Assembly: GCA_041690595.1 (NCBI GenBank)
Contig: JAWLHB010000012.1
Location: 36,785-100,784, forward strand
From: Lentisphaeria bacterium
GTDB taxonomy: Bacteria; Verrucomicrobiota; Lentisphaeria; JABSQK01; JAWLHB01
Direction: 5' to 3'
DNA: 64,000 nucleotides
Positions 1,661-57,672 of this stretch are shown in pieces. The stretch's first letter is position 1, and every line of letters starts with the position of its first letter. The notes beneath the pieces were generated by a model. That model saw only the letters and a list, made by a program, of their open reading frames with translations. It was not told the origin of the DNA and ran no database searches. A program made the translations under genes and the position numbers.

Positions 1661-1800
1661 GAATCCCTCCGGTCGTGCCCTATACTCGGTGACCTCCCTA
1701 ATTTATACCGCTATACGCGGAACGCCACTGATGCCAGTACTGCCCGTTAGAAGTCTTTCCCCGTTTAGCAACTCCGATCTGGGCCCAATGCACGTTTGGC

Positions 1801-2086: not shown

Positions 2087-2250
2087 TGTTTGCTATATTC
2101 TTTCGGTGGGTATAGATGCGGCTCGCGGCAGCTCCTGCACCACTTCCGGCATGTTTAGTCAACTGCTTGCATATTTCGTCACTCGGCGCTTGACAACGTT
2201 AAATACGGAGTCAAGTTGATGTCCATCACTACAAACAAAGGGGTTTAAAG

Positions 2251-3189: not shown

Positions 3190-3299
3190 CGCCCGCCAGC
3201 TGAGCGGGCAGGGAGGCACGGCAGAGCAGACGACTCTCCGGGGTTGGACGGGTCAATGCCTGCTGCGTGCCCGCAGGCCACGTAAGTGCCTGTCGGGGG

Positions 3300-16837: not shown

Positions 16838-19285
16838 TTATTTTTCCTGGCGCAGGGTGTTGACATCCCAGATCACGACCCGCTGCTTGTCCCGCAGTGC
16901 CAGGAATCCTCCTTCACCCGAGAACCCCACCTGTTCCGGCTGGAATGGCGTTTCCAAGGACTGCCAGTCCTCGGTGCCGGGCTCCCAGAGCCATAGCCGG
17001 TTCCCACTCGCCAGTACGGCTACCAGCGGCGCGCGAAACGATACCGCCAGCCCCCGTATCGGACCTTCACCCACTGCCACCGGCGGCTCAAATTCCATGC
17101 TCTCCAGTTCGACCACGAGGAGACGATCGTCATCGGCAATGAATGCTTTTCCCTGTGAAGCAGAGACGGCCAAGGTGCGTCTTTCACTCACGCTGCCAAG
17201 GTCCAGTCGCCTGCTTTCGGCTCCAGTTTCCAGCGAATACTTCACCAGTGCCCCCGGCTCCAGCGCATAAAGGTGTTGCAGGTCCGCGCTCAGGCGCACG
17301 GAAAGCACACGCGCGGCCGATTGAATCAACATGCGCTGCGCTCCACTCGTCAAGTCAAAGACGCGCACCATGTCTCCCAGGCTCACCAGAATGGGCGACT
17401 CGCCATTGGTAACATGCAATTCACGGATGGCACTTTCCGCGGCGAGCGTGTGCAGCTTGCGTCCGGTAGCCATCTCCGTGATCAGAACACTGGCAGTTCC
17501 CTCCAGGTGGGAGGCGAGCACCGAACCGTCGGCACTGAGATCCGCGGTCGTGCCCGGAGTGGTGCGCAAGGTCTGGCCGCGACGGCGCAGATCGAGCACC
17601 CTGACCAAGTCGCGCTCCACGACCAGCAACATGGGCATTCTCGCCGCAAACTGGATATCCGTGAGCGATCGCTTGAAGGCAAGTGGCAGCATCGGCTTGT
17701 TGCGCATGATGAGGGCACCGCTCTCGGTCAGTTCCGCCACCTCTTCCGCCGGCTCAACCAGTTCCACAGCCTCGGGTTCAACGTCAGGCGCGGCCGCTTC
17801 ACCTTCAGCGGGAAGCGGCTCTTCCGGCGGAACCGCAACGTCAGGCGCGGCATCCTCCACCGGCGCTGCTTCCATGAGCGGCGGGGCAGACACGGGACCG
17901 GGTGTTTCATCCGGCGCGACAGCGGCTTCATCGGGTGGTGTCTGAGGCTCAGCCGTCTCTCCATCCTCCACCGCGACGGGCGCCTGCGCAGGTGTTTGCG
18001 CCACGGTCGGCGTTAACGGCTGGCTCGAAACCATGGTACCGGGCTGAACCATCTCGTCAGCTTCAGGAGCGATGACGACGGGATCTTCGACCGCCGGTGG
18101 GCCTTCACCAACCGCCGGACCAGGCTCCCGGTTGAAGAGGGTGATACCCGCCAGTACCGTCCAGACCACGATCAGCAGAATGATCACCGTGTACAACACC
18201 TGGCTGACGCGGTCCGGCCGTTTGCCGGCCAGCTCCTCATTCTCGATCTCGGCGCTGGTCTCGCTGGTAGCGACGTCCTGAGCTCCGGCGTTCTCGAGCA
18301 ACGCTTCCAAGCCGCCAAAGTATTCCATCTGAGCCCCTTGACTCTCTCCCTGCTGCACAGCCCGCTCAGCCTTAAGCCACCAGTTCAGCGGGTTGGACGT
18401 GTCATCAGGGTACTCATCGAGTGGCAGACCGGACTCGATGATATATTCTCTCTCCCGACGGACAAAGCCCAGCAGGTGCTTCCACAGGCGCTCACGAAAA
18501 ACTCTCGATGTCGTCTCCACGTGCAGATAAAACTGTATGCCGCGCTCGGCATCCGCCACGAAATACAATGGCGTCAGCTCGGGTCCCAGCAGGGGCAGCA
18601 CCCAGGGCTCCGTTGGCAGCGTCGCGCGATTGTCGTCCTGGCGATCCGGCGGCAGGAGGTCGAAGGCCCGCAAGACCTTGGCCAGGAAATAAGACTCGAT
18701 GCCGCTGATGGTTTCGCAGAACTGCCCGATGAAGCGATGGGTCTTCGAATTGCAGAAGAGAGACTCGTCATCGGTCGGCCACCACATGGCGTAGGTGCCG
18801 TTGGGGGCCCGCCCATTGTCCACCTCCCGGAAGAGATCGAGGCCGAAGGAGCGCAGGGGGTCGATCGGTTGGGCGGCAGGCAAGGGATGCGGCGCGTAGT
18901 AGACGGGCGGCATGTAGTCGAGGCGCTGCAGGGCATCCTGGACACCGGAGAAGTGAGCCCCCTCCATGGCGCCGGATTGGGCATAGACATACATCGCCAC
19001 GCCAAGATTGCCTTTGCGCAGCAGGAAGGGAACCTCCAGCACACCCTCCTCGAGAAGGATGCTGCGATTGAAGCCGATCGCTTCTACGCCGAGATCCGAG
19101 TCCGAAAAGGTCTTCTTGATGATCTTGTAGACCAGACGCGCATCCAGTTCGATGGGGCCTTGCGCGCTTTCCGGATCAGCCGGTCTCTCCCAGGGGATGG
19201 TGATGGTCGGCCAACCGGGATCGCTGCATTGCAGTATCAGCGAATTTTGCTGTCCAGTTTCTTCCTGCATATCATCGCCTGTCAT
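16838..19285 (-). CDS. Membrane-anchored protein with Pro/Ala/Glu-rich linker and C-terminal beta-propeller-like (WD40/PQQ-type) repeats
   Basis: One TM helix (VLYTVIILLIVVWTVLAGITL), a ~120-aa PAE-rich low-complexity stretch, and repeated VRVFDL/VVIWDV-type blades. Start moved to ATG 19285 (MTGDDMQEE) to avoid a 140-bp overlap with the neighbouring gene. Confidence 0.6.
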   Translation of the reverse strand: MTGDDMQEETGQQNSLILQCSDPGWPTITIPWERPADPESAQGPIELDARLVYKIIKKTFSDSDLGVEAIGFNRSILLEEGVLEVPFLLRKGNLGVAMYVYAQSGAMEGAHFSGVQDALQRLDYMPPVYYAPHPLPAAQPIDPLRSFGLDLFREVDNGRAPNGTYAMWWPTDDESLFCNSKTHRFIGQFCETISGIESYFLAKVLRAFDLLPPDRQDDNRATLPTEPWVLPLLGPELTPLYFVADAERGIQFYLHVETTSRVFRERLWKHLLGFVRREREYIIESGLPLDEYPDDTSNPLNWWLKAERAVQQGESQGAQMEYFGGLEALLENAGAQDVATSETSAEIENEELAGKRPDRVSQVLYTVIILLIVVWTVLAGITLFNREPGPAVGEGPPAVEDPVVIAPEADEMVQPGTMVSSQPLTPTVAQTPAQAPVAVEDGETAEPQTPPDEAAVAPDETPGPVSAPPLMEAAPVEDAAPDVAVPPEEPLPAEGEAAAPDVEPEAVELVEPAEEVAELTESGALIMRNKPMLPLAFKRSLTDIQFAARMPMLLVVERDLVRVLDLRRRGQTLRTTPGTTADLSADGSVLASHLEGTASVLITEMATGRKLHTLAAESAIRELHVTNGESPILVSLGDMVRVFDLTSGAQRMLIQSAARVLSVRLSADLQHLYALEPGALVKYSLETGAESRRLDLGSVSERRTLAVSASQGKAFIADDDRLLVVELESMEFEPPVAVGEGPIRGLAVSFRAPLVAVLASGNRLWLWEPGTEDWQSLETPFQPEQVGFSGEGGFLALRDKQRVVIWDVNTLRQEK

Positions 19286-19296
19286 TCGGGTGAAGG

Positions 19297-20685
19297 TTAT
19301 CCCGGTCCCGCAAAGGTGTAATAGGGTTCGTTGTTCAGGATCCGCTGAAGGTAAAGTGCCACCTCGAGCGCATGATAATCGCCCCACATGCTCGCCTCGC
19401 CACAGGGGATGCTGCTGCCCTCGGGCACATGGTCCCACCCGTTGGGACGGTGATAGATCGAGTGCAGAAGAAGCCCCTGATGGGCCGGATCCTCGCTCAG
19501 ATAGGGCTCATCGAAAAGCGTTTTCAGCACCTGCAGCCCAGCCTGCCAGTAGCGGTCACCCTTGGCGCGATCGCCGTGTTCCTGAAGGAAGCGCCCCAGG
19601 CGCAGGAGCCCCTGGCTGCCGATCGCCGCCGCCGAGCTGTCCACCGGTTCATGATCATTGTAAGGTTCGGCCGGTCGCTCGAGGTAATCGCCCATGGCCG
19701 CCAGCCCCGGCGCACCGGTATCCCAGTAGGGAATGCCGTCGATCGGGGTATGCTCGATGTAGAAGTCGCAGCTTGCCAGCGCGGGACGAAGCAGCATCTC
19801 GTTCACGCGTGCCCGCCCACCGAACGGCGCGAGCTGAGCATCGTCCAGCCTGCCGATGAACTCCAGCTCTTCCGCGAAGCCGCACATGATCCAGGCCAGC
19901 CCACGCGTCCACGTGCTGAACGGCGAATACCCCTGCTGCGAATTGGGACAACGGAAAACGCCGTTGTTGGTGTTGAAGATGCTCTCGTGCGCCACACGTC
20001 CATGCAGATCGTAGCTGTCTCGCCCTTCCCCGTAGAAGACCGCATAATCGGCAGTGACCCCGGCATGATGGAGCAGACGCTCGAGCAGGGAAACGTTGGC
20101 ATCCTGCTCCATCATCAGCGACTGCCCCAGCTCGTGCGCGACGGCCAGAGCGCGCAGGGAGCGAATGGTGTCGGCGAAAAGCGAGTGCGGCCCGTTGAAG
20201 GAGTAGATGTAACCACGCCCATCGGCAATTGGCGTCCAGCGTACGGCCTGAACAACCCCCGAGCACTTGAGCGCCATGCTGTAGAAATCCACATCACCGT
20301 CAGTGGCGGCGATCTTCCCTTCCCGCGCGAGACGCAGCAGGTTGCCATAGGTGCTGACATTATTGAAGCCGTGGTCGTGTACGCCCACATGCGTGACGTG
20401 CCCGGCCATGTTGTGTCGGGTATTCTCACGGCCCAATTGCAGAAATTCTTCATCGCCAGTGGCATCGAAGAGGAGCAGCGCACTGCCATATTGGAAGCCC
20501 TGCGTCCATTCGGTCCAGCCACGGGCCGTATAGCGGCCGGCGACAGTAAAGACCGGTGCGCCCGAGCCCAGCGGATAGTCATGATCGATCGCGCGTATTT
20601 TTCGCGGCGCCGCGGCAAAAACCCGAGCTAGCTGTGGCTGCAGGTCGGCCGCCTTCAAGTTTGGATCAAGCTGAATGATAATCAC
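19297..20685 (-). CDS. GH88/GH105-like unsaturated glucuronyl/rhamnogalacturonyl hydrolase-fold protein
   Basis: HDHGFNNVSTYGNLLRLA and overall alpha/alpha-toroid-like sequence. Family assignment is tentative. Confidence 0.5.
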   Translation of the reverse strand: MIIIQLDPNLKAADLQPQLARVFAAAPRKIRAIDHDYPLGSGAPVFTVAGRYTARGWTEWTQGFQYGSALLLFDATGDEEFLQLGRENTRHNMAGHVTHVGVHDHGFNNVSTYGNLLRLAREGKIAATDGDVDFYSMALKCSGVVQAVRWTPIADGRGYIYSFNGPHSLFADTIRSLRALAVAHELGQSLMMEQDANVSLLERLLHHAGVTADYAVFYGEGRDSYDLHGRVAHESIFNTNNGVFRCPNSQQGYSPFSTWTRGLAWIMCGFAEELEFIGRLDDAQLAPFGGRARVNEMLLRPALASCDFYIEHTPIDGIPYWDTGAPGLAAMGDYLERPAEPYNDHEPVDSSAAAIGSQGLLRLGRFLQEHGDRAKGDRYWQAGLQVLKTLFDEPYLSEDPAHQGLLLHSIYHRPNGWDHVPEGSSIPCGEASMWGDYHALEVALYLQRILNNEPYYTFAGPG

Positions 20686-20963: not shown

Positions 20964-21037
20964 GCGGGTATAGCATAGTGGTAATGCTCCAGCCTTCCAA
21001 GCTGATTAGAAGGGTTCGATTCCCTTTACCCGCTCCA
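20964..21037 (+). tRNA. tRNA-Gly (anticodon TCC), 74 nt with encoded CCA
   Basis: Manual cloverleaf: acceptor GCGGGTA/TACCCGC, D-arm GCAT-AGTGGTA-ATGC, anticodon loop CTTCCAA (U33, TCC, A37), T-arm AAGGG-TTCGATT-CCCTT, discriminator U, CCA. One C·A mismatch at the top of the anticodon stem. Confidence 0.85.
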
Positions 21038-43459: not shown

Positions 43460-45445
43460 ATGACAGCATCCGATCTCTCGACAAAGAAGTTAGCCATGTA
43501 TGAGGCCTCCGCCCGCCTCGACCTCCTCACCCCGCCCCGACCCGCCACCGATGACGAGCTTGCCCAGGCCGCCGAGATCCGCGATGGCAGCATCCGCTTC
43601 AATGCCAATCAACCCGCCGATGTTCCCAAGACCCTCCTCCTCGTCGGCAGGAAAATGATCGATTGGAGCGGCGGCCATCTCCATCACCAGGAATGGCCAA
43701 CCCAGTTGAGTCGCTTCTTCATGCTCGGCCCCCTCATGAAAGCCTACCGGGCAACCGGCGACGCCGCCTTCGCCGAAGCCGCCCACGATTACATCGATGA
43801 CTGGATCGACAGCTTCGACGCAGAAGACATCGGCCTCCGGGGCAACACCTGCATGGATATCGGCATCCGTCTCGGTACCCACGGCGGTGGCGGCTGGGCG
43901 CCGGCCCTTGCCCTCTTCATGGATATTTGGAGCGATGCCTTCATTGACAAGGTTCTCCGCTCCATCGAGCAACAGGCACAAATCCTCTGGAAGCGCGGCA
44001 TTCCCTCCAGACCATGGGGAAACCATCGCATCTTCGGTTTGGACGGCCTCCTTCACGTCTGCCTCCGCCTGCCTTTCCTGCCTGACGCCGACCAGATGCT
44101 GGAGTGCGCCCGAAACGGACTCCAGCACGCCGCCAAAAGCCAGTTCCTCGAAGATGGCGCGCACATCGAAGCCACTCTCGGCTATCATCAGCACATGGCG
44201 CAGACCTTCATCTACATGCACCGGCTCGGCCAGGCCTTTCCTGAGCTGGGCATCAACCTGCCGACCGACCGCCTCCTCAAAGCCGCCGAGTATTACCTGC
44301 ATACCCAGCCCACCGGTATCAACGATACCTCTGCCTCCTGGCAGGATCGCGCCTGCCCCGACGCCTGGGCAACCGCGCGCGCCTGGCGGGAAGCGCTCAC
44401 CGGGGTGGCCGATCCCACGTGGCAGCCTGCCCGCGATGCCCACTTCGCCAGCGTCGGCCAGTGCTTTGCCCGCTCCTCATGGGAGCCCGGTGCCGACTTC
44501 CTCGCCTTCGATGCCGGCCCCTATTCCGGTGCACACGCGCATCTTGCCAGGCTGGGCCTGGTCTTCCGTTCCGGCGGCCGCCTCTGGATTGCCGATCCCG
44601 GCACCTTCGACTACGAAATGTCCAATCCATATGCCATCTACGGCCGCTCCACCCCCGCCCACTCCACCCTCAACCTCAATGGATTGAATCAGGGGCTCGG
44701 CGATGCGCGGATGCCCCAGGCCGTCATCCGTGACGACCTCGTCTTCCTGCACGGGATCTATCCCGGCGGCTACTGGAGCGGCGAGTATTCCTGGGGCTTC
44801 CAGCAGGGGCTGGGCACCGGCATCCATGGGCGCCATGAGCGTCTGGTCCTCTGGATCCGCGACGACTATCTGCTTGTCTTCGATGCCCTCATGGGCGATC
44901 GCGGCAGTACCGTCGAGAATGTCTGGCAGATGGCGCCAGTCAAGGGCTGGACGCACGATCCCGAGACCCTCTCCTGGCAATCGCGCGGCGAACCCGTCAA
45001 TTTCCACCTGCAGATGCTTCTTCCTCCCGGCGATGTACGGATGCAGATTCACCAAGGCGAGCAGGATCCCCTGCGCGGCTGGTTCTGCGAAGCCTACTCC
45101 AAGGGCTTTATCCCCGCGCCTCAGATCGTCTTCCGCTACGACACCGACTCCACCTTCCATGCCACCTTGGCCATGCCCCTCAGCGAAGGACGCCAACCGC
45201 CAGTCGTGCGAAGCTCCGCCGCCGCCGGCGACCGCGAGTTGGAGCTTGCCTGGCCGGATGGCAGCGTCGACTGGATCGGCATCTCCCAGAGCCTCTGCGT
45301 ACCTCTGGGCGAAGATGGACCCGCCGTCACCGACAGCCCCCTCGTCTGGATCCGCCTCGATCCCGAAGGCACCCCCCGCCGCCACTTCATGATGAATGGC
45401 ACCTACCTGCGTTTCCGCGGCCAGACCCTCGTCAGCGCCACCTGA
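43460..45445 (+). CDS. Heparinase II/III-like polysaccharide lyase family protein
   Basis: FDAGPYSGAHAHLARLGLVFRSGGRLWIADPGTFDY matches the Hepar_II_III GHAHxD...DPGTxxY core. AGGAA lies 8 nt upstream of the ATG. Confidence 0.65.
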   Translation: MTASDLSTKKLAMYEASARLDLLTPPRPATDDELAQAAEIRDGSIRFNANQPADVPKTLLLVGRKMIDWSGGHLHHQEWPTQLSRFFMLGPLMKAYRATGDAAFAEAAHDYIDDWIDSFDAEDIGLRGNTCMDIGIRLGTHGGGGWAPALALFMDIWSDAFIDKVLRSIEQQAQILWKRGIPSRPWGNHRIFGLDGLLHVCLRLPFLPDADQMLECARNGLQHAAKSQFLEDGAHIEATLGYHQHMAQTFIYMHRLGQAFPELGINLPTDRLLKAAEYYLHTQPTGINDTSASWQDRACPDAWATARAWREALTGVADPTWQPARDAHFASVGQCFARSSWEPGADFLAFDAGPYSGAHAHLARLGLVFRSGGRLWIADPGTFDYEMSNPYAIYGRSTPAHSTLNLNGLNQGLGDARMPQAVIRDDLVFLHGIYPGGYWSGEYSWGFQQGLGTGIHGRHERLVLWIRDDYLLVFDALMGDRGSTVENVWQMAPVKGWTHDPETLSWQSRGEPVNFHLQMLLPPGDVRMQIHQGEQDPLRGWFCEAYSKGFIPAPQIVFRYDTDSTFHATLAMPLSEGRQPPVVRSSAAAGDRELELAWPDGSVDWIGISQSLCVPLGEDGPAVTDSPLVWIRLDPEGTPRRHFMMNGTYLRFRGQTLVSAT

Positions 45446-45510: not shown

Positions 45511-46779
45511 TCAGAACTTGTAGATCGCGTCCATCTGGTAGAGGTTCGCCTCATTCTCCCCCTCGATTTGCTCGAGAAGCATGGCCGTGGCACCTAGTGA
45601 GAAGTTCTTGGTGAGCTTGTAGCTGGCGCTCAACTTGTGGCCTTCCACATTCGTGTTGTAGAGCCCGGCGGTATCGCCGAAGTCGGAATCCTTGAGGAAA
45701 GGCGGCGCCGAATCGGCCTCCACATAGCCGTAGGCATAGCCCAGGCTCCAACTGCCGACCTTTGCGCCGATGCCGGCCGTCCAACCCAGATCCTCATCTT
45801 CAGGCGTCAACCCTGACACATTGCTGGCAGTGCCGTCCGCGCCAAAGTTGCTCCAGACGTCGCCGAAGAGCGACAGGGTCGCCTTGTCCAGCTTCAGCGA
45901 AAGCTCCCCGTACAGGTCGCCGATATGGTAGTCATACTCCGAACTGAACGGCGTGAGCAGCTCGCTGGTCTGCGCATCATAGTAGTAGTATGCCGCCGCA
46001 ACCTTCGCCTTCATACCCTTGCCAAGATCGCCACCCCAGCCGAGCTGCGCTGCCACCAGCGATGCATTGTCGCCGTTGCTGTCGCCGTTATCGCTGGCAT
46101 AGAGCACCTTGTATGCGCCCATCGTGGCAAAGAACCCGGCCATGTCACCAGTCACCGTTGCGCCAGCGGGCCGGACATCGCCGTCCCAAAGCAGAAATGA
46201 CGAGACAAAGGGGTTCGACTGCTGGCCCAGGATCACCGCCACCTTGCCGTCATCACCCTTCCACGTGTGCTTCGCATAGGCATAGTCGATCCGCAGGTCG
46301 CCGGTATCGAAGGGGCCACTGTCCGACCAAGTGTCGTTTGTACTCGTCGCGTCCGATCCGCCCGACGCCACCCCGACCCCGATCTCCCAGCCTTCCTCGG
46401 CGGCCCAAACGCCCCCAAGCCGGAGCCGGGTACGGAAGCGATCGCGAGTCGTCTCCGTGCTCTTGTCCACATCCCGTGCCTCATACCGCAGGCGAAGATC
46501 GCCCTTGATCTTCAGATTCGAGATGTGATCGCTCAGCTTGATGCCCCCGCCACTGCTACGCTGCGAAGGATCCACCGCCCGATCCACTTCCTCGCGGATC
46601 TGTCGCGAAAGCTGACCCTGATTCTCATTGAGCTGTCGACGCATGCTCTGGATCTCCGACTGCTGCTGCCGGATCTCCTGTTGCATCTGCTCGATCTTCT
46701 TCAGGATCTCATCATTCTCAATCGCCCACAACGAGGCGCTCAGCGCCAAGGTCACAGTCAGTACAAAAAATCTCTTCAT
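45511..46779 (-). CDS. Outer-membrane beta-barrel porin-like protein with N-terminal Gln-rich coiled coil
   Basis: Signal peptide MKRFFVLTVTLALSASLWA, alternating amphipathic beta-strand pattern, C-terminal aromatic residue (…IYKF). Confidence 0.6.
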   Translation of the reverse strand: MKRFFVLTVTLALSASLWAIENDEILKKIEQMQQEIRQQQSEIQSMRRQLNENQGQLSRQIREEVDRAVDPSQRSSGGGIKLSDHISNLKIKGDLRLRYEARDVDKSTETTRDRFRTRLRLGGVWAAEEGWEIGVGVASGGSDATSTNDTWSDSGPFDTGDLRIDYAYAKHTWKGDDGKVAVILGQQSNPFVSSFLLWDGDVRPAGATVTGDMAGFFATMGAYKVLYASDNGDSNGDNASLVAAQLGWGGDLGKGMKAKVAAAYYYYDAQTSELLTPFSSEYDYHIGDLYGELSLKLDKATLSLFGDVWSNFGADGTASNVSGLTPEDEDLGWTAGIGAKVGSWSLGYAYGYVEADSAPPFLKDSDFGDTAGLYNTNVEGHKLSASYKLTKNFSLGATAMLLEQIEGENEANLYQMDAIYKF

Positions 46780-47214
46780 GATTTTCCCTCACTCCTTAAG
46801 GTATTACCGAGATGATCTTCACAACACCCTCGCCTCTCAACTGGGGTTTGACGAGCCCCCGCACGTTCCACACCAGCCTCCCTTGGTTTCGCGTTCCACT
46901 GCATCTGGTTCAGCAAACGAGTATACCCTAAGGCTCTCTCAGCACTCCCGCTCGGCGCTACGGTTAAGACCCCGTAAAGATCCCGCTAATCCCCCATTTG
47001 CCCCTCACCCAGCATTGCTCCAACGGAAGGAGGAGGACACTCGACAACCGCAACAGGCACTCAAACATCCTGTACATTTCGATGTTCTTCAAGCGTCAAC
47101 GGACAGGACACCCACTTTGATCCCCTGAGCGTGAGAAATTGGGTGCTCTGCTGGTTTCTTCTGGAACGCAACCTATACTAAACGTCGTTGAAGCATCCAC
47201 ACTATAACGAGAGC

Positions 47215-48270
47215 ATGAACATGGCAATTGGTCATCTGGAGGCCAGACTATTCACCGTTTTCTCGAAGATCGACTTGGACTTCTCTCCCGGTATCAACGT
47301 CATCATCGGAGAGAATAGCACGGGCAAATCACACCTGATGAAATTGCTTTACGCCGTGAGCCAAGTGCTCTTCACCTCCGAGAAAGAAGGTGAGCGCAAG
47401 CTGCTTGAAGCCGAACTCCACAAGAAACTGGTGAACACGTTTAAGCCGGATGAGGGAAAGCTGGGGCGGCTTGTGCAACGTAGCCGTGGTCGAGCCACAG
47501 CGAGAATGAATATCAGGTTCGGCACTGGTGGTTTCAGCTTTCGATACACCACGCTCTCCAATCTTGCCATTGAGCAGGTCGGTGCAAGACAAGAGGATAA
47601 TCCTATCTTCATACCCTCTCGGGAGGTCCTTGCCATCTACCCCGGCTTTGTGCAAGCCTACGAGAATCGGGAACTGGCATTCGATGAAACGTACCGGGAC
47701 ATATGCGTCGCGTTGAGCGGCTCCCTTACGCGAGGCCCACGGCAAGAGAAGATCCAGGACCTCGTATCGCCACTTGAAAAGCGTCTCGGTGGTAAGGTCG
47801 TACTGGACAACGATCGCTTCTTCGTCAAGGCCAGAGATGGTAATATCGAGGCACACTTGCTCGCGGAAGGTCTTCGCAAGCTCGCCAGTATAGTCTTCCT
47901 CATCAACAATGGCTCGCTCACCGAGCGCAGTATTCTTTTCTGGGACGAACCGGAAGCCAATTTGAATCCCACCCTCGTCAAGCTGCTCTGCGATGTCCTG
48001 CGCCAGCTTGCCAATAGCGGCATGCAAATTTTCCTCGCTAGCCACGATTACCTGCTCACTCAGGAGCTGGCCTTGGCATCCGAGTACAAGACAGAGCCCC
48101 ATGTGCCAATCCGCTTCTTTGCCCATAGCCGCAACGCAGAGGGCCACGTTGACATAGAACAAGCCGATGATCTCGCCGAGTTACGTAACAACGCCATTCT
48201 GGAGGAGTTCGCCGCACACTACGACCGGGAAGCCATGCTCTTTGCAGAACGTGCGGAGGTCCAGAGATGA
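47215..48270 (+). CDS. AAA_21/ABC-type (SMC/RecF-like) ATPase of the kind found in abortive-infection/defence modules
   Basis: Walker A GENSTGKS, signature-like LAEGLRKL, Walker B SILFWDEPEANLNP, H-loop IFLASHD. The track ORF starts at TTG 47188. ATG 47215 or 47221 is more likely. Visibly lower G+C than the flanks. Confidence 0.7.
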   Translation: MNMAIGHLEARLFTVFSKIDLDFSPGINVIIGENSTGKSHLMKLLYAVSQVLFTSEKEGERKLLEAELHKKLVNTFKPDEGKLGRLVQRSRGRATARMNIRFGTGGFSFRYTTLSNLAIEQVGARQEDNPIFIPSREVLAIYPGFVQAYENRELAFDETYRDICVALSGSLTRGPRQEKIQDLVSPLEKRLGGKVVLDNDRFFVKARDGNIEAHLLAEGLRKLASIVFLINNGSLTERSILFWDEPEANLNPTLVKLLCDVLRQLANSGMQIFLASHDYLLTQELALASEYKTEPHVPIRFFAHSRNAEGHVDIEQADDLAELRNNAILEEFAAHYDREAMLFAERAEVQR

Positions 48271-48842
48271 GCCAGGAAATAGTCGAAAAGCAGATAAAGT
48301 ACGTCTTTGGGGATTCCTGGCGAATTTTTAAGTACGACGAGCATCCTTTTTATACCGGCCGGCTGGTTCCACTAGCGGGAAAGGTCAAGAAGAAGACCGT
48401 CTCCACCACCGGCATCGATCTTGCTGGAAGCTGCGGCAATCGTCTATTCCTAGTCGAAATCAAGGATTTCGCAGGATTTCCACGTGAGCGAGCACGCATC
48501 ACCAGCGGCGAACTGGCACTGGAAATCGCCATCAAGGTGCGTGACTCCATCGCCGGCCTGATCGCCGGGGCTCACCACCCCAACTGCAAGCCTCACAAGA
48601 CATGGGAGGCCGTCGCTGATCACCTCTGCAACGCTCCCCACGCCATTCAAATTATTCTTTGGCTCGAGGTCGACATGCTGCCACCAGCCCTCAAGCATAA
48701 GCAGATGATGAGCACCTTTGGCAACCAGCTCAAGCAAAACATTCGCAATTGGTTACCAGCTAGCGTCTTCGTGCTCAATTTGCAGACGTACGAATCCATA
48801 ATACCAGACATGGAAGCTTTCCGCTTGAGCATGCCGGGATGA
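48267..48842 (+). CDS. Small (191 aa) protein of unknown family with a PD-(D/E)xK-like motif (putative nuclease partner of the ATPase)
   Basis: Start overlaps the ATPase stop (ATGA). TGIDLAGSCGNRLFLVEIKDF gives D-x12-E-x-K spacing typical of restriction-endonuclease-fold nucleases, with an upstream acidic YDEH. I recognised no other family. Confidence 0.5.
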   Translation: MSQEIVEKQIKYVFGDSWRIFKYDEHPFYTGRLVPLAGKVKKKTVSTTGIDLAGSCGNRLFLVEIKDFAGFPRERARITSGELALEIAIKVRDSIAGLIAGAHHPNCKPHKTWEAVADHLCNAPHAIQIILWLEVDMLPPALKHKQMMSTFGNQLKQNIRNWLPASVFVLNLQTYESIIPDMEAFRLSMPG

Positions 48843-48944
48843 ACTGGCCACTTTCGAATCGGCCAATACCAGCATCGCGAAACTGTCGGCAAAACTTCAT
48901 CGTAGTGTTTGACCTGCAACTCGCAGAAGATGCGATCTTTCGGC

Positions 48945-50312
48945 TCAGGAGCCTGTGCGCTTTGCGAGGCGGAGGGTGAAGGTGGAACCCTTTTCGAGCT
49001 GGCTTTCGACGGTGACGGTGCCACCGTGGACGCGCATGATGTGTTTCACGATCGACAAGCCAAGGCCGGTGCCGCCGCTCTGCCGGTCGCGGGATCGGTC
49101 CACGCGGTGAAAGCGCTCGAAGATGCGCTCCAAGTGTTCGCGGGGAATGCCGATGCCTTCGTCGCGCACCGTCAGGACGGCATGCTGCTGCTCCTCGCGC
49201 AGGCGAATCGTCACGGTCGCGCCATCCGGGCTGTACTTCACCGCATTGTCGATCAGATTGGCGATGGCCTGCTCGAGGAGGCGATGATTTGCGTAGACCT
49301 GGCATGGATCCAGCTCGACGATGGCGGCGATATTGCGCTCGCGCATCTTCGCTTCGTAAGGGCGCAGGGCATTGGCTGTCGTCACGGCCAGATCCTTCCG
49401 CTCGAACTCCTGGGCCACCCATCGGTCGGCTTGCTCCAGGCGCGAGAGGGTCAGCAGGTCATCGACGATGGCGTTGAGGCGCTCCGCCTGCTGCGCGATA
49501 ATGGTGACGAAGCGCATGGCCTGCTCGGGCGCCCCCTCCAGGCAGCCGCCCAGAGTTTCGATGAAGCCCTTGATGGAGGTGATCGGCGTTTTCAGCTCGT
49601 GGGAGACATTCGCCACGAACTCTTTGCGCATCTCTTCGAGGCGGCGCACCCGGGTGACGTCGTGCATCACCACCAGCGCTCCGGGGGCGGCCCCCTGCTC
49701 ATGGACGAATCGTACACCCGATAGCCGATAGACCGTGACAACGTCCGCCGTACCGCGAACCTCCATCTCCTGCTGCAGGTGATCGGCACCCTCCGTAAGC
49801 AGCTCATCGACGAAGTGGGTAAAGGTGGCATTGCGCACCACGGAAAAGAGGGGTCGTCCGGCAATGGATTCCTCATCGGACAAGCCGAAATAGAGATGGG
49901 CCGCCTGGTTCATCGCCAGGAGGTTCACCTCGTTATCGACCGCCAGAATGCCTTCTCGCATACCGGTGAAGAGGGCGATCCACTGCTGCTTCTCCAGTTG
50001 GAGATCGCTCACCTGGGTCTCCAGCGCTTCCGCCATCTCGTCGAAGGCAGCGGTCAAGGGAGCCAGCTCCAGCCACGGATTGGCCGGACTTCGCGCGCGC
50101 CAATCCCCCTTTCCCAGGCGCAGCAGCCGATCCTCGAGTTGCGCCTGCCAGTAGGTCAGGAGCCGGATCAGGAGGAGACTGACGAGCAAAATGCCGATAA
50201 TCGCCGTCACCGCCCCGATGAAGGGGCTCCAGAACAAGGCGCAGCCGCCCGCCAGCAGCAGAACCAGCAGGAGTCGATTCGCCAACCACCAGTATAGGGA
50301 TTGCCTGCGCAT
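48945..50312 (-). CDS. phoR: Phosphate-regulon sensor histidine kinase
   Basis: TM-PAS-HisKA (VANVSHELKTPITSIKGF)-HATPase. Immediately downstream of phoB/phoU/pst genes. Confidence 0.8.
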   Translation of the reverse strand: MRRQSLYWWLANRLLLVLLLAGGCALFWSPFIGAVTAIIGILLVSLLLIRLLTYWQAQLEDRLLRLGKGDWRARSPANPWLELAPLTAAFDEMAEALETQVSDLQLEKQQWIALFTGMREGILAVDNEVNLLAMNQAAHLYFGLSDEESIAGRPLFSVVRNATFTHFVDELLTEGADHLQQEMEVRGTADVVTVYRLSGVRFVHEQGAAPGALVVMHDVTRVRRLEEMRKEFVANVSHELKTPITSIKGFIETLGGCLEGAPEQAMRFVTIIAQQAERLNAIVDDLLTLSRLEQADRWVAQEFERKDLAVTTANALRPYEAKMRERNIAAIVELDPCQVYANHRLLEQAIANLIDNAVKYSPDGATVTIRLREEQQHAVLTVRDEGIGIPREHLERIFERFHRVDRSRDRQSGGTGLGLSIVKHIMRVHGGTVTVESQLEKGSTFTLRLAKRTGS

Positions 50313-52536: not shown

Positions 52537-54246
52537 TCAAAAAGCGCTGGTTGCATACTTGCGCCGCAAGTGTTCTCGAATGATGATGGCGGTCAGGTTG
52601 AGCACCACCACCAGCGCGATAAGCAGAAGCGCCGTCGCGAAAACCATGGGTTTGGCCGCCTCGGCGTCAGGTGATTGAAAACCGAGATCGTAGATGTGAA
52701 AGCCCAGGTGCATGAACTTCTGGTCGAGGTGGATAAACGGATAGTTGCTGTTGACGGGCAGTTCCGGGGCAATCTTCACCACGCCTACCAGCATCAGCGG
52801 CGCCACCTCGCCCGCGCCGCGGGCCATGGCCAGAATGACGCCGGTCAGGACGCCGGGCGCCGCCGCCGGCAGAACGACCCGCTGAATGGTCTGCCAACGC
52901 GAAGCGCCGCAGGCCAGGGCGCCTTCCCGCGTTCCCCGCGGCACCGCCGCCAGCGCTTCCTCCGAGGCGACGATGACCACTGGCACCGTCAGCAGCGCCA
53001 GCGTCAGCGAGGCCCAAAGAATGCCTCCCGTGCCGAAGGTGGCGGTCGGCAGCCGGTCCGCATAGAACAGCTCGTCGATCGTACCACCCATCCCCCAGAC
53101 AAAGAAGCCGAGTCCGAAGACACCGAAGACGATCGAGGGCACGCCAGCCAGATTGTTGATGGCGATGCGTACCATGGCGACCATCGTCCCCTGTTTGGCA
53201 TACTCCCGCAGGTAGATCGCGGCCACCACCCCGAAAGGGGTCACCAGCATGCTCATCAGTACCGTCATCACGAAGGTACCGAAGATAGCCGGCCAGATGC
53301 CCCCTTCGGTATTCGCCTCCCGCGGCTCCTCCGAGACGAAGCGCCATATCTGCCAGAGGAAGTGGCCCAGCCGCTGCAGCAGGTTCATCTCGTTCGGGTA
53401 GGTGTAGTCGATCACCTCCCCCATGCTGATCTCGTGTTCGCCACCGCTGACCAGCCGATAAACCAGCCGCTGCCGGTTCAGCTTTTCGCGTAATTCTTTC
53501 AATTGCGCTTCGAGGACCTCGAACTCCACCTGCAACGCGGCCAGGCGGGCTGTCAGCGCCTCCCGTTTCGGCGTGTCGGTCGCACCGCCCGATGCCTCGG
53601 CACGATTCATGGAGCGCAGCTCCAGGTTGATCGCGGTCATCGCCGTATTGATGCGGCCGATCTCCTTTCGATCCAGCTGGTGAATCTGCCGCCGCCCATC
53701 GCTCACCTCATCCAGTGCCGCCGCCAGCGCCTCGCGAAAGCCGTCCGACGCGGCTTTTATCTCGGTGCCGTCAGCCGAACGCAGGGCCACGGGCAACGCG
53801 AGCACATCGCCATACTCAGCCCGTTCGATGGCGATGGCATCCGGCAGCAGTTCCATCTCCGCGATGAAGCTGGTGTCAATCCAGATAAAGGAGCCGTCAT
53901 AGAGCTCGCGGCTGCCAATGAAGAACTGCGTCTCTTTCTGAGCGGGAGCGAGATCTCCTTGCGCATCCATCTCCCGGCTCATCTTCCGGCGGCTCTCCAC
54001 GAGCACTCCCGCGAAGCGCGGCTCCTCGCCGAATCGTCGCTGCAGCGCCGTCAGCACCGGCTCTGGAAGATCCTTCGCCAGTTCCACGGCCATGATCGGC
54101 TTCGGCCAGAAGACGTTGAGCCCCTTGACGACGATCAGCCCCAGCATCAGGACAATCATGAGCAGCCCGATCGTGATGCCCATCGACGTCAGCCATACCC
54201 AGGCTTCCCCCTTCGGCTGAACCAACTGTTTGCCTTTCTCAGTCAT
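52537..54246 (-). CDS. pstA: Phosphate ABC transporter permease PstA, long form with N-terminal coiled-coil/periplasmic insertion
   Basis: C-terminal region matches PstA (…[17 protein letters not shown]…). ATG 54246 with GGGAG 7 nt upstream chosen. Confidence 0.8.
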
Positions 54247-54265
54247 ACAATCTCCCGCCCCGAAG

Positions 54266-56542
54266 CTAGATAGTCTTGTACTTGCCACGCAGGTGCTGAC
54301 GCAGCAGCTCTGCCATGGTATTGACGATGAAGGTCATGAGGAAGAGCAGAAATCCACCCAGAAAGAGTGTGCGGTAGAGGGTTCCTTCTTTCGGCGCTTC
54401 CGGCAGCTCGACGGCGATATTGGCGGAGAGCGTGCGCATGCCCGAGAAGATGTTGAGGTCGAGGAGCGGGGTATTGCCCGTCGCCATCAGGACAATCATG
54501 GTCTCGCCAACCGCCCGCCCCAGGCCGATCATAATCGCGGAGAAGATGCCCGCCGACGCGGTGGGCAGCACCACCCTTAACGCCGTCTGCCAGCGACTAG
54601 CGCCCAATGCCAGCGAGGCGCTGCTCAGGCTCCGCGGCACGTTCGACAGCGCATCCTCCGCGATGGTGAAGATGATCGGGATGACGGCGAAACCCATGAT
54701 AAAGCCGACCACCAGCGCATTGCGCTGCTCGAAGCGGTTCCCCGTCACCGCCGGCCACCAGAGTCGGAAATCAGCCACCTTCCGCCCGGCGTCCGTCTCG
54801 ATGACGAAAAAGATGCGCTCGATGACGGGTCCCAGATACCAGGCCGCGATCCAGGTCAGCACCAGGATCGGCAGAAAGCCGATGAACTCGAATCCATCGG
54901 GACAAAGCAGGCGTGTCCGCTTTGGCAGCCTTGACCAGAGCGCGCCAGAGAACATCGCTACCACGGGTATCGCGATCACGAAGAGCAGAAAGCTCGGCAC
55001 CCGCGTCTCGACGATCGGCGCCAGCCACAGCGCCGCCAGAAAACCCAGGACTACCGACGGCAGCGACGCCATGATCTCCATCGTCGGCTTCACGTAGCTC
55101 TTGAATTTGGGATGTTGAAACTGGGAGACGTATATCGCCCCCAGCAGCGCTATCGGCACCGCGAAGAGCAGCGCGTAGATCGTCCCCTTGAAGGTCCCGA
55201 CGATCAGCGGTATCATCGACAACTTCGGCTCGAAATCGTCGCTCGCGCCCGTTGACTGCCATTTGTACTCGGGCTCGGGATTTCCTTCGTACCAGATGCG
55301 GCTGAAGTAGGCGGCGAAGCCGGCTTCCGGATGGGGATCGTTCAGCGAGAAGAGGTGCAAGTTGGACTGATTATCGAGCAGCAGGATCCTGTCGTACTTG
55401 CCGGAGACTGCCGCCAGCCGCGGCTCATAGTCGAGCCGCTTCTTCCAGCGAACGGATGCCGTCGTCGCATAACGCAGGCTCACCTGGTTGCCATGGCCGA
55501 TAAGGAAGCCCTTGTTCCGCAAGCTTTTGGCGTAGACACTGGGCGCCCCTTCCAGCGGCGGAAACTCCTTCGTCTTTCCCCAGAGCATCTTGCCGACATC
55601 GTCGTGCATATAGAGGCTGAAGCCATAGCTCACCCCGTCGCTGTTGGTGAAGAGCACCGTCGTGTCGCCGAAGAGAAAGTTCATTTTTGCCAGCGGGGCA
55701 GCGTCGCTGCCCTCGAAGGGGCGAATCAGTTGCCGCAGCTCCACTTCGCCCGCCACAAACTGGAAGTAAGCCACCTCGTCGCGATCGTTCCGCACAAGGA
55801 TGCTGCGCCCATTCTGGCTGACCAGCACCTCTTGCGGCACACCGGGCAGCTCCGCCGTCAGATCCATCATCAGGCCGACTTCGATCTCCCCCGGCCCCAT
55901 CAGCGACATCGTCTGCGTCAGGGTGGCCATACGCAAGTGCCTCTCTCCGTCCGCGCCTTCCGTGATGCCGACGATCACCTTGCTCCGATCGGCCCCCGCA
56001 TAGGCGATCGCCAAAATCGCCTCGCCCCGCTCCCCCAGCGGATACATGTTGCCGGGCCGAAGCTCGACATCCACAACCCGGCTGCCTGTCGAGAAGTTGG
56101 CCGAGTAGACGATGTCCACGATGACGAACTCACCCAGCGCCGTTCCGTAGATCAACTGCTGCGTCTCCTGCCCATACGTCACCGAGGTCACCTGGTGATC
56201 GCGGAGGAAGTCAAGCTCTGGAACCAGCGTTTCCGTCCCTTCGTCGAGTCCCGGAAAGAGCAGCCGACCATCCCGGCGAAGAACGAAGGGCCGCTCGGTC
56301 CATTCATCCACGCCCAGCGCCAGGTAATCACCCGGGGGGATGGCCGCGGTGCGCAGTTCCTTGATCTGCGCACCGCGGAAGAGCGGCAGAATTTCAAGCA
56401 GGATGAAGACGAAGATGAGCATCACGGTGAGGATAACCAGAAGACCGCCCGCGCGGATGAACTGGTTCATGAACTTGTCCGCCATCAGCGTCACCTTCGA
56501 CGCCGCGAAGCGGTTCTCCCATTGCTTGTCTCGCTTCATCAT
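54266..56542 (-). CDS. pstC: Phosphate ABC transporter permease PstC, long form (~758 aa) with large extracytoplasmic insertion
   Basis: C-terminal permease core (…GLGRAVGETMIVLMATGN…) is typical of PstC. The N-terminal half is an extra beta-rich domain. Confidence 0.8.
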   Translation of the reverse strand: MMKRDKQWENRFAASKVTLMADKFMNQFIRAGGLLVILTVMLIFVFILLEILPLFRGAQIKELRTAAIPPGDYLALGVDEWTERPFVLRRDGRLLFPGLDEGTETLVPELDFLRDHQVTSVTYGQETQQLIYGTALGEFVIVDIVYSANFSTGSRVVDVELRPGNMYPLGERGEAILAIAYAGADRSKVIVGITEGADGERHLRMATLTQTMSLMGPGEIEVGLMMDLTAELPGVPQEVLVSQNGRSILVRNDRDEVAYFQFVAGEVELRQLIRPFEGSDAAPLAKMNFLFGDTTVLFTNSDGVSYGFSLYMHDDVGKMLWGKTKEFPPLEGAPSVYAKSLRNKGFLIGHGNQVSLRYATTASVRWKKRLDYEPRLAAVSGKYDRILLLDNQSNLHLFSLNDPHPEAGFAAYFSRIWYEGNPEPEYKWQSTGASDDFEPKLSMIPLIVGTFKGTIYALLFAVPIALLGAIYVSQFQHPKFKSYVKPTMEIMASLPSVVLGFLAALWLAPIVETRVPSFLLFVIAIPVVAMFSGALWSRLPKRTRLLCPDGFEFIGFLPILVLTWIAAWYLGPVIERIFFVIETDAGRKVADFRLWWPAVTGNRFEQRNALVVGFIMGFAVIPIIFTIAEDALSNVPRSLSSASLALGASRWQTALRVVLPTASAGIFSAIMIGLGRAVGETMIVLMATGNTPLLDLNIFSGMRTLSANIAVELPEAPKEGTLYRTLFLGGFLLFLMTFIVNTMAELLRQHLRGKYKTI

Positions 56543-56560: not shown

Positions 56561-57517
56561 TTACTGGAGTTGGTCGAGTGTCTGTTTGGCAATGGAAGCC
56601 GGGATGGGGAAATAGCCATCCTTGACGACGATTTCCTGCCCTTCCTTGCTCAGGACGAAGGTGAAGAACTCCTTCACCAGCAGATCGATCTTTTCGTTCG
56701 GCGAATCATTGACATAGACATAGAGGAAACGCGCCAGCGGATACTTGCCGTTCAGCGCATTCTCGGATGTGGGCTCAGCCCCCTCGCCGCCTTCCTTGGA
56801 CAGCTTTACCGCCCGCACACCGGAGGTCATGTAGCCGATTCCCGAGTAACCGATGCCACCCAGATCGCTCGCGATCCCCTGCACCACGGCGGAAGATCCG
56901 GGCTGCTCCTTGACCGTCCCGCGGAAGTCCCCCTTGGCGAGCGCGTTCTCCTTGAAGAAGCCGTAGGTTCCCGAGGCGCTGTTGCGGCCATAGAGGGAGA
57001 TCGGCAGGGCTGCCCACTGTCCCGTCAGCCCCAGATCGCCCCAGTTCGTTATCTCCTTGCCCCCGAGCTTGCGGGTGCTCGAGAACATGCCGTCGATCTC
57101 CTTCATGCTCAACGATTCAATCGGGTTGTCCTTGTGCACGAAAACGGCCAGCGCGTCAATGGCCACCTTGATCTCCGTCGGTTTGTAGCCGTGCTGCGCC
57201 TCGAACTTGTCCAGCTCGGTCGATTTCATGGCGCGGCTCATGGGCCCCAGTTGCGCGGTACCCTCGATCAATGCCGGTGGGGCGGTGGACGATCCCTTGC
57301 CTTCGATCCCGATGCGGACATTGGGGTAGATCTTGCGGAACCCCTCCGCCCAGAGCGCCATCAGGTTGTTCAGCGTATCCGAGCCCACGCTGTTGAGATT
57401 GCCAGACACGCCACTGACCGGCTTGTACGACGGAAGATCCGGATCGACCTTCACTTGCGCGCTCGCCAGCCCCAGCGTCAACACCATGACATAAAGAGAA
57501 ACTATCACTTTCTTCAT
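56561..57517 (-). CDS. pstS: Phosphate-binding protein PstS (periplasmic)
   Basis: Signal peptide MKKVIVSLYVMVLTLGLASA from ATG 57517 (AGGAG 8 nt upstream). …SGTYGFF… PBP motif. Confidence 0.85.
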   Translation of the reverse strand: MKKVIVSLYVMVLTLGLASAQVKVDPDLPSYKPVSGVSGNLNSVGSDTLNNLMALWAEGFRKIYPNVRIGIEGKGSSTAPPALIEGTAQLGPMSRAMKSTELDKFEAQHGYKPTEIKVAIDALAVFVHKDNPIESLSMKEIDGMFSSTRKLGGKEITNWGDLGLTGQWAALPISLYGRNSASGTYGFFKENALAKGDFRGTVKEQPGSSAVVQGIASDLGGIGYSGIGYMTSGVRAVKLSKEGGEGAEPTSENALNGKYPLARFLYVYVNDSPNEKIDLLVKEFFTFVLSKEGQEIVVKDGYFPIPASIAKQTLDQLQ

Positions 57518-57642
57518 TTGCAGGACTCCTCTACCAAATGTAGGTTTCGCAGGATTCGAGAAGGGGATAGATGATATCATCCCTTCCAGAAGTAGTATGC
57601 CCCCACTCTGCCTGGCTACCATGGCTTCAGCGCAAGGGATGA

Positions 57643-57672
57643 GTTAAGGAACCGTTAAGGAATTATTAAGAC
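57643..57672. promoter_or_regulatory. Pho-box-like element: GTTAAGGAA repeated at 11-bp phase (GTTAAGGAAcc GTTAAGGAAtt aTTAAGacg) in the divergent pstS/nagA-like promoter region
   Basis: Two exact 9-mers and a third partial copy at exact 11-bp spacing (57643, 57654, 57665), ~125-150 bp upstream of the pstS start. Confidence 0.45.

What the first reader, a model, noticed from the sequence alone, without database searches (positions are those of the whole stretch)
46780..48944. Compositional islet (~2.1 kb) with lower G+C than the flanks
By eye the 435-bp intergenic region plus the two genes are roughly 48-52% G+C, against >60% in the porin and phoR genes on either side. This points to recent horizontal acquisition of the ATPase/nuclease pair. 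I could not compute exact values.
Basis: seen in the sequence. Interest (0 to 1): 0.5.

Follow-up and report, generated by a model that had tools for sequence, protein, structure and literature searches.

The report
Inserted two-gene anti-phage defence cassette
The low-G+C patch is real and holds a two-gene ATPase-plus-nuclease cassette of a known anti-phage type (HEC-02), inserted by horizontal transfer between a phosphate-sensor gene and a phosphate-regulated porin gene; it is an ordinary small defence islet.

Summary
Window 46780-48944 is 53.4% G+C against 61.3% for the whole window. It is the lowest of all 2.2-kb stretches (z about -4.4). Both genes have GC3 of 0.646 against 0.772±0.028 in 29 neighbouring genes, with atypical codon and tetranucleotide usage.

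The pair is gene A (47221-48270, SMC/Rad50-head-type ABC ATPase) and gene B (48267-48842, 191 aa). B has a restriction-endonuclease-like fold and a conserved D51...E64-x-K66 motif. Both match PADLOC models for HEC-02 (1e-98 and 8e-18). HEC-02 is a two-gene system shown by Payne et al. to protect E. coli from phages, with both genes required.

The same A+B pair occurs in unrelated contexts across phyla and on plasmids, once embedded in a BREX system. The two nearest relatives found have phoR directly followed by the porin, with no pair. So horizontal insertion is supported.

"Recent" is not shown: the closest A homologue is 68% identical, and no repeats, integrase or tRNA flank the insert. The porin-proximal intergenic DNA carries a Pho-box-like site and is probably native, so the insert is smaller than the compositional dip. 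This is a new, divergent member of a known kind, of low-to-moderate interest.

The parts
47221..48270 (+). Gene A: 349-aa ABC ATPase of the SMC/Rad50-head type without coiled coil (HEC-02 ATPase). An in-frame ATG at 47215 and a TTG at 47188 are alternative starts.
48267..48842 (+). Gene B: 191-aa PD-(D/E)xK (restriction-endonuclease-like) protein, the predicted nuclease effector (HEC-02 nuclease partner). Its start overlaps the stop of A by 4 bp (ATGA).
46981..47220 (.). Upstream non-coding stretch that probably came in with the cassette (promoter region of A). The left edge of the insert lies somewhere in here and is not resolved.
   Evidence: It lies between the Pho-box-like site of the porin promoter at 46963-46980 and the start of A. 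Non-coding DNA between phoR and the porin totals 543 bp here against 283-321 bp in relatives. No sigma-70-like match was found on the + strand, so the promoter is inferred.
48843..48944 (.). 102-bp spacer between the convergent stops of B and phoR; right edge of the insert.
   Evidence: 51.0% G+C. The change-point right edge is 48895-49065. No terminator-like hairpin was found in it.
46963..46980 (-). Pho-box-like direct repeat (TCTTTAC-GGGG-TCTTAAC), 184-201 bp upstream of the porin ATG. It is native regulatory DNA, not part of the insert, and serves as a boundary marker.
   Evidence: The pattern TCTTWAC-N4-TCTTWAC with <=2 mismatches has 3 matches in 64 kb against 0.16 expected. The other two overlap at 57643-57671(-), directly upstream of pstS (56561-57622). 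A 2-mismatch match lies in the phoR-porin spacer of L093 at 7731-7748, and the block aligns across the three spacers.

Best explanation
The islet is a horizontally acquired two-gene anti-phage cassette of the HEC-02 type. It is inserted, in the opposite orientation, into the spacer between phoR and a Pho-regulated porin gene at the end of a conserved pstSCAB-phoU-phoB-phoR-porin cluster.

Gene A encodes an ABC ATPase built like an SMC/Rad50 head, with intact Walker A, Walker B and H-loop. Gene B is translationally coupled to A and encodes a small PD-(D/E)xK nuclease with a conserved D51...E64-x-K66 catalytic motif.

Inferred mechanism, by analogy with Septu PtuAB, retron-Septu and PARIS AriAB: A forms an ATP-dependent dimer or oligomer that binds B and keeps it inactive. 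A cue from infection (phage DNA or DNA ends, a phage protein, or a change in nucleotide state) switches the ATPase. B is then released or activated and cuts nucleic acid, most likely DNA, which stops phage replication.

Status of each step:
- Shown here: composition, gene identities, folds, motifs, conserved pairing and absence from the syntenic site in relatives.
- Shown by others for a family member: phage protection, and the need for both genes.
- Inferred: A-B complex formation, the trigger, the substrate, and whether the cell survives.
For: Composition: 53.4% against 61.3% G+C, the window minimum. GC3 0.646 against 0.772±0.028 and codon z about -4.2 to -4.6. Tetranucleotide distance z +5.15.

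Pairing: every A homologue examined (Verrucomicrobiota MAG, Phycisphaerae, Chondromyces and others) is followed by a 165-197-aa B-family gene, usually with a 4-bp overlap.

Mobility: the neighbourhoods are unrelated. One is next to JetD. One lies between brxC and pglX on Methylomonas plasmid pLM6. One is beside toxin-antitoxin genes on a Paracoccus plasmid.

Synteny: L093 (PstB 83%, PhoB 74%, PhoR 59% identical) and L090 both have phoR followed directly by the porin, with 283 and 321 bp between and no A or B.

Function of the family: Payne et al., bioRxiv 10.1101/2024.01.29.577857, report that HEC-02 (ABC ATPase plus NERD-like PD-(D/E)xK protein) lowered plaquing of phages in E. coli and that both genes were needed.
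Against: - No experiment exists on this locus. The tested HEC-02 representative is a different, distant sequence.
- No integrase, transposase, tRNA or flanking direct or inverted repeats mark an insertion.
- The comparison genomes are only family- or order-level relatives, so loss in those lineages cannot be formally excluded.
- The window has no other recognisable defence genes next to the pair, so there is no defence-island support here.
- The ATPase-as-sensor model is borrowed from other systems. A is more conserved than B, which fits a rapidly evolving sensor less well.
Confidence: 0.8

Rival explanations
1. The pair is ancestral to this lineage and not acquired. Its low G+C and odd codon usage reflect weak expression and weak codon selection, and the relatives examined have lost it.
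For: No mobility genes, repeats or tRNA at the borders. The relatives used for synteny are distant. Pairs of this family are lower in G+C than their flanks in every locus examined, which could be an intrinsic property of the genes.
Against: The gene order phoR-porin with a short spacer is shared by two separately diverged relatives. The pair is oriented against the cluster. Homologues are scattered over many phyla in unrelated contexts and on plasmids. Tetranucleotide usage also differs, not only third codon positions.
Confidence: 0.07
2. The pair is not an immune system. It would instead be a toxin-antitoxin or addiction module (the Pfam label of AAA_21 is 'putative AbiEii toxin'), or a small DNA-repair ATPase-nuclease machine analogous to SbcCD or RecF-type proteins.
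For: Pfam AAA_21/AAA_15/SMC_N hits. The best structural matches of A are Smc and Rad50 heads. One plasmid homologue sits beside toxin-antitoxin genes.
Against: The specific match is to HEC-02 models at 1e-98, against about 1e-18 or weaker for everything else. A family member was shown to protect against phages with both genes required. A lacks the coiled coil of Rad50/SbcC, and B is not an Mre11/SbcD phosphoesterase. The patchy, mobile distribution and the embedding in BREX suit defence rather than housekeeping repair.
Confidence: 0.1
3. Gene A is an accessory ATP-binding subunit of the neighbouring phosphate ABC transporter, and the pair belongs functionally to the Pho regulon.
For: Location inside the pst-pho-porin cluster. 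Weak NCBIfam hits to transporter ATPases at 1e-7 to 1e-8, far below their cut-offs.
Confidence: 0.01

Closest known systems
HEC-02 (Hma-embedded candidate 02; Payne et al., bioRxiv 10.1101/2024.01.29.577857; PADLOC-DB v2)
   Same: Two adjacent co-oriented genes: an ABC ATPase of about 350 aa plus a small NERD-like PD-(D/E)xK protein with a (D/E)xK motif. Both window proteins match the PADLOC HEC-02 models (1e-98 and 8e-18). The published family member needs both genes for phage protection.
   Different: Here the pair stands alone between housekeeping genes rather than embedded in an Hma, BREX or other defence system. B is very divergent: no relative is above 42% identity and it has no Pfam NERD or DUF6661 hit of its own. 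No functional data exist for this branch, and the mechanism of HEC-02 itself is unknown.
Septu (PtuA ABC ATPase + PtuB HNH nuclease) and the Septu-type retron effectors (retron Eco7/Ec83)
   Different: The partner nuclease is PD-(D/E)xK, not HNH. No retron reverse transcriptase or non-coding RNA is present (Rfam found only one tRNA in the window). PADLOC does not place A in Septu.
PARIS (AriA ABC ATPase + AriB TOPRIM nuclease)
   Different: The effector fold differs (TOPRIM in PARIS, PD-(D/E)xK here). A is about 350 aa against about 500 aa for AriA. The matches are about 80 orders of magnitude weaker than to HEC-02.
NERD domain proteins (Pfam PF08378) and DUF6661 (PF20366)
   Same: PD-(D/E)xK superfamily with a D...(D/E)xK motif. 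47 of 110 B relatives hit DUF6661 and 6 hit NERD weakly.
   Different: The window's B reaches neither family at E<=0.1, so it can be called a remote relative only.

Membership tests
HEC-02 (PADLOC) | ATPase component matches the HEC-02 ATPase profile | tested here: met
   PDLC04213 1.1e-98 over residues 12-349 of 360, covering profile positions 1-330 of 337. PDLC04146 2.1e-91. Next-best family AriA 1.8e-18.
HEC-02 (PADLOC) | Small partner matches the HEC-02 nuclease profile | tested here: met
   PDLC04228 7.7e-18 (residues 5-182, profile positions 3-195 of 199). PDLC04145 7.8e-17.
HEC-02 (PADLOC) | The two genes are adjacent and co-oriented (one operon) | tested here: met
   The stop of A and the start of B overlap by 4 bp, at 48267-48270. 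The same arrangement holds in 7 other loci.
HEC-02 (PADLOC) | ATPase is of the ABC (not AAA+) clade, with intact nucleotide-binding motifs | tested here: met
HEC-02 (PADLOC) | Partner carries the PD-(D/E)xK signature on a restriction-endonuclease-like fold | tested here: met
HEC-02 (PADLOC) | Embedded within another defence system (the way the family was discovered; not required for membership) | tested here: not met
   The flanks are a porin and phoR. A plasmid homologue is embedded between brxC and pglX.
HEC-02 (PADLOC) | Protects against phage, with both genes required | not testable with these tools
   Reported for one representative in E. coli. Nothing is known for this sequence.
Horizontally acquired genomic islet | Base composition, codon usage and oligonucleotide usage differ from the host background | tested here: met
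   z -4.4, -4.5 and +5.15.
Horizontally acquired genomic islet | Absent from the orthologous site in related genomes | tested here: met
   L093 and L090 have phoR then the porin, 283 and 321 bp apart, with no A or B by tblastn. The relatives are distant. No close relative exists in the GTDB species set, where the best PhoR match is 39%.
Horizontally acquired genomic islet | Mobility signatures (integrase or transposase, tRNA target, flanking direct repeats) | tested here: not met
   There are no convincing flanking repeats. The only tRNA is at 20964-21037. There is no recombinase ORF within or next to the islet.
Horizontally acquired genomic islet | Recent arrival (near-identical copy elsewhere, or presence/absence among strains) | tested here: inconclusive
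   The closest A is 68% identical and the closest B 38-42%. No strain-level genomes are available.
NERD (Pfam PF08378) | Sequence match to the NERD profile | tested here: not met
   No Pfam family at E<=0.1 for B. Only 6 of 110 relatives match, the best at 2.6e-4.
Septu | PtuA-type ATPase plus HNH nuclease PtuB | tested here: not met

The most novel reading that the evidence does not exclude
The cassette may have been wired into the phosphate-starvation response. It sits divergently from, and about 240 bp away from, the Pho-box-controlled porin promoter, at the end of the pst-pho operon. PhoB might then co-regulate anti-phage defence with phosphate limitation.

A second, independent reading concerns roles within the pair. 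In 26 of 28 locus comparisons the nuclease partner B diverges faster than the ATPase A. B, rather than the ATPase, might therefore be the specificity or target-recognition subunit, or the subunit under phage counter-pressure. That would invert the usual 'ATPase senses, nuclease executes' picture.
Probability: 0.1. Interest if true: 0.5.

Novelty: new member of a known kind. Interest (0 to 1): 0.27.

Why it matters
This is a clean, well-bounded example of how a minimal two-gene immune cassette lands in a neutral intergenic spot without any visible mobility machinery. It leaves the neighbouring Pho-regulated promoter intact.

It extends the HEC-02 family to a deep-branching, uncultured, high-G+C lineage, with a nuclease partner that has no relative above 42% identity. 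It also adds three observations that could guide mechanistic work on a system whose mode of action is still unknown:
- A and B are strictly paired across phyla.
- The conserved residues are now mapped: D51/E64/K66, and K90/D93 in a 'KVRD' helix in B; Walker A, Walker B and H-loop in A.
- The ATPase evolves more slowly than the nuclease.

Beyond that it is a routine defence islet.

Tried and rejected
- Locating the source genome or close relatives. Exact-sequence look-ups of A and B found no retrievable contig. The proteins are singletons from one 196,816-bp NCBI contig. A scan of GTDB species genomes with PhoR gave nothing above 39% identity. Strain- or genus-level presence/absence could therefore not be tested.
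- Word-indexed homologue search for B found only itself. The exhaustive HMMER search was needed.
- Insertion scars. Searches for direct and inverted repeats, terminators and promoters around the borders gave only chance-level matches. There is no tRNA nearby.
- Alignment of the porin-upstream spacer with those of relatives is mostly uninformative, except for the Pho-box-like block.
- The B profile against PDB sequences gave a weak hit (E 0.02) of residues 100-175 to HlyU/ArsR-type regulators. I rejected it as chance, because the confident model shows that stretch as the alpha-beta-alpha-beta continuation of the nuclease core, not a winged helix.
- Foldseek of B against the PDB gave no significant match. 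The afdb50 library was unavailable.
- Phage carriage. There were only two short unannotated metagenomic 'phage' fragments with 35-36% identical A homologues, so there is no evidence that this cassette is phage-borne.
- The transporter-subunit idea for A was rejected (see the rival explanations).

Full report

Yes. The stretch 46780-48944 is 53.4% G+C, against 61.3% for the whole 64-kb window. The individual parts are:

| Part | G+C |
|---|---|
| Left intergenic region | 53.1% |
| Gene A | 53.7% |
| Gene B | 53.0% |
| Right spacer | 51.0% |
| phoR | 63.0% |
| Porin gene | 59.7% |

Among all 2165-bp windows (mean 61.2%, sd 1.77%) the global minimum starts at 46751, so the islet is the most extreme stretch present, z about -4.4.

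- In 29 reference genes of the window, GC3 is 0.772±0.028 (minimum 0.702). A and B both have GC3 of 0.646 (z -4.55).
- Their synonymous-codon log-likelihood under the window's usage is 4.2 and 4.6 sd below the gene distribution.
- The tetranucleotide frequency distance to the window is z +5.15, rank 2 of 619, and all top windows overlap the islet. The correlation of tetranucleotide z-scores is 0.39 against a mean of 0.59.

A two-state change-point fit places the right edge at 48895-49065, matching the phoR stop codon at 48945. It places the left edge at 46430-46765, inside the 5' end of the porin gene. The dip on the left therefore mixes foreign DNA with ordinary AT-richer native promoter and signal-peptide DNA.

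**2. What the genes are**

Gene A (47221-48270, + strand; 349 aa, as in the identical database gene call P0002):
- It hits Pfam AAA_21, AAA_15 and SMC_N.
- It hits the PADLOC HEC-02 ATPase models at 1.1e-98 and 2.1e-91. The next family, AriA, is at 1.8e-18.
- In 58 homologues the Walker A (G30-x-N32-x-x-G35-K36), Walker B (D242-E243), H-loop (H275) and a signature-like E216-G217-x-R219-K220 are invariant.

Gene B (48267-48842, + strand; 191 aa; its ATG overlaps the TGA of A):
- It has no Pfam or NCBIfam hit but matches the PADLOC HEC-02 partner models at 7.7e-18 and 7.8e-17.
- The word-indexed search found only itself. The exhaustive search found 461 cluster representatives, nearly all 175-200 aa, the closest 42% identical.
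- In an alignment of 110 of them, F14 and E64 are invariant. D51, K66, W18, D24, K90, D93 and W162 are at least 90% conserved.
- D51...E64-x-K66 is the classical PD-(D/E)xK signature. In the confident model (pLDDT 93.7) D51 sits just before strand 52-56, and E64-x-K66 lies within the next strand 59-67.
- Of the 110 relatives, 47 hit Pfam DUF6661 and 6 hit NERD weakly.

The nuclease call rests on fold plus motif, not on any assay.

**3. The pair is a unit, and it is mobile**

A has more than 4,600 homologues at E<=1e-3 from many phyla: Verrucomicrobiota, Phycisphaerae, Chondromyces, Accumulibacter and Nanopelagicales. In every locus examined the A homologue is immediately followed by a 165-197-aa gene that belongs to the B family.

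The neighbourhoods have nothing in common:
- next to JetD and an AAA_14 gene in a Verrucomicrobiota MAG;
- among sugar-metabolism genes;
- among VWA and AMP-binding genes in Chondromyces;
- among sulfur-transport and HSP20 genes in Phycisphaerae;
- between brxC and pglX of a BREX-1 system on Methylomonas plasmid pLM6;
- beside toxin-antitoxin genes on a small Paracoccus plasmid.

In all of these loci the pair is lower in G+C than its flanks, by roughly 1 to 11 points.

**4. Synteny test**

The window carries pstS-pstC-pstA-pstB-phoU-phoB-phoR on the minus strand, then the islet, then a Porin_5 porin on the same strand.

No close relative of the source genome could be found. The best PhoR match among GTDB species genomes is 39%. 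The two nearest contigs recovered through the porin are these:

| Locus | Identity to the window | Gap between phoR and porin |
|---|---|---|
| L093 | PstB 83%, PhoB 74%, PhoU 68%, PhoR 59%, porin 47% | 283 bp |
| L090 | porin 54%, PstB 62%, PhoB 53% | 321 bp |

Both have phoR followed directly by the porin, and no A or B anywhere in about 17-21 kb. A third relative places the porin just upstream of pstS, which also ties this porin to phosphate uptake. The simplest reading is that the pair was inserted into the phoR-porin spacer in the lineage of the window.

**5. Where the insert begins**

The direct repeat TCTTTAC-GGGG-TCTTAAC at 46963-46980 (minus strand) lies 184-201 bp upstream of the porin ATG. 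The pattern TCTTWAC-N4-TCTTWAC with up to 2 mismatches has only three matches in the window against 0.16 expected. The other two overlap at 57643-57671, directly upstream of pstS. A 2-mismatch match lies in the phoR-porin spacer of L093, and the block aligns across the three spacers.

Seven-base direct repeats at 11-bp phase are the architecture of PhoB boxes; this is established knowledge for PhoB/OmpR-type regulators, and the assignment here is an inference. So the porin-proximal part of the 441-bp intergenic region is native promoter DNA. The left edge of the insert lies somewhere in 46981-47220. The foreign segment is therefore about 1.7-2.0 kb, not 2.17 kb.

No direct or inverted repeats, integrase, transposase or tRNA mark the borders. 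The mechanism of insertion is unknown.

**6. How it most likely works**

Payne et al. (bioRxiv 10.1101/2024.01.29.577857) defined HEC-02 as an ABC ATPase plus a NERD-like PD-(D/E)xK protein found embedded in Hma systems. They reported that one representative reduced plaquing of coliphages and that both genes were required. How the ATPase senses infection was left open.

Combining that with the folds found here and with solved relatives of the ATPase (Septu PtuA, retron-Septu, PARIS AriA), my working model is as follows:
- A forms an ATP-dependent dimer or oligomer that binds B and restrains it.
- An infection cue alters the ATPase state.
- B is then freed or activated and cuts nucleic acid, probably DNA.

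Fold, motifs, pairing and translational coupling are shown here. The phage-defence phenotype is shown only for a distant family member. Complex formation, trigger, substrate and cell fate are inferred.

One observation cuts slightly against a simple 'ATPase is the fast-evolving sensor' picture. A is consistently more conserved than B, with mean pairwise identity 46% against 35% and A above B in 26 of 28 locus pairs. The window's closest A is 68-69% identical while its partner B is only 38%.

**7. Rivals**

- An ancestral pair that was lost in the relatives is possible, but it is disfavoured by the opposite orientation, the shared phoR-porin adjacency in two relatives and the scattered distribution of the family.
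- A toxin-antitoxin or DNA-repair role is suggested only by generic Pfam labels and by the SMC/Rad50-like fold. The specific profile matches and the published phenotype favour defence.
- A role as a phosphate-transporter subunit is effectively excluded.

**8. Novelty and verdict**

This is a new, divergent member of a known kind, HEC-02, in an uncultured high-G+C bacterium. The flanking genes (a heparinase-like enzyme, a Porin_5 porin, and best hits among Kiritimatiellota, Lentisphaerota and Verrucomicrobiota MAGs) suggest the PVC group, but the taxon was not determined.

Horizontal acquisition is well supported. Recency is not. The finding is sound but ordinary, and I score interest at about 0.27. 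The most novel readings still open are coupling of defence to the Pho regulon, and the nuclease as the specificity subunit. Both are speculative.

Noticed in passing
window 46963-46980 (-) and 57643-57671 (-): Pho-box-like 7-bp direct repeats at 11-bp phase (TCTTWAC-N4-TCTTWAC). There is one pair upstream of the porin and three tandem repeats immediately upstream of pstS. That is 3 matches against 0.16 expected in the window, which suggests the porin belongs to the Pho regulon.
   Followed up: partly
window about 1200-3800: A second compositional oddity. It has the lowest tetranucleotide z-score correlation in the window (0.35) and G+C of 58.3% at 2001-3000. ORF 2251-3189 (+) has a weak Y1/IS200-like transposase hit (6e-6). 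The coding frames here are unclear, because several long ORFs have GC3 below GC1.
   Followed up: partly
window 16838-19438 (-): An 866-aa ORF with the lowest GC3 of the reference genes (0.702) and clearly atypical codon usage (model z -6.8). It has no meaningful Pfam hit and may be another acquired gene.
   Followed up: no
window 52537-54288 and 54266-56542 (-); L093 1-3636: The PstA-like (583 aa) and PstC-like (758 aa) permeases are about twice the usual length. The same long forms occur in the relative L093, so this is a lineage trait rather than an ORF-calling artefact.
   Followed up: partly
window 47221-48842 versus L001, L004, L006, L007, L095, L096, L097: The ATPase A evolves more slowly than its nuclease partner B: mean pairwise identity 46% against 35%, with A above B in 26 of 28 comparisons. 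The closest A is 68-69% identical but its partner B only 38%.
   Followed up: yes
L001, L002, L004, L006, L007, L009, L097: In every other locus examined the HEC-02-like pair is lower in G+C than its flanks, by roughly 1-11 points. Low G+C is therefore a family-wide feature and not, by itself, evidence of a recent transfer.
   Followed up: partly
L095 (Methylomonas koyamae plasmid pLM6) 6998-8613: An A/B-family pair sits between brxC and pglX of a BREX-1 system. A further PDDEXK nuclease gene lies between pglX and pglZ. This is a textbook case of defence genes embedded in another defence system.
   Followed up: partly
window 48267-48842, residues 100-175 of B: The family profile gives a weak sequence match (E 0.02) to HlyU/ArsR-type transcription activators in the PDB. 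I judged it to be chance, because the predicted structure shows the nuclease core there.
   Followed up: yes
window 43460-45445 (+): A heparinase II/III-like gene lies next to the porin. Together with the porin's best hits, it hints at a polysaccharide-degrading PVC-group (Kiritimatiellota- or Lentisphaerota-like) source organism. The taxon was not determined.
   Followed up: no
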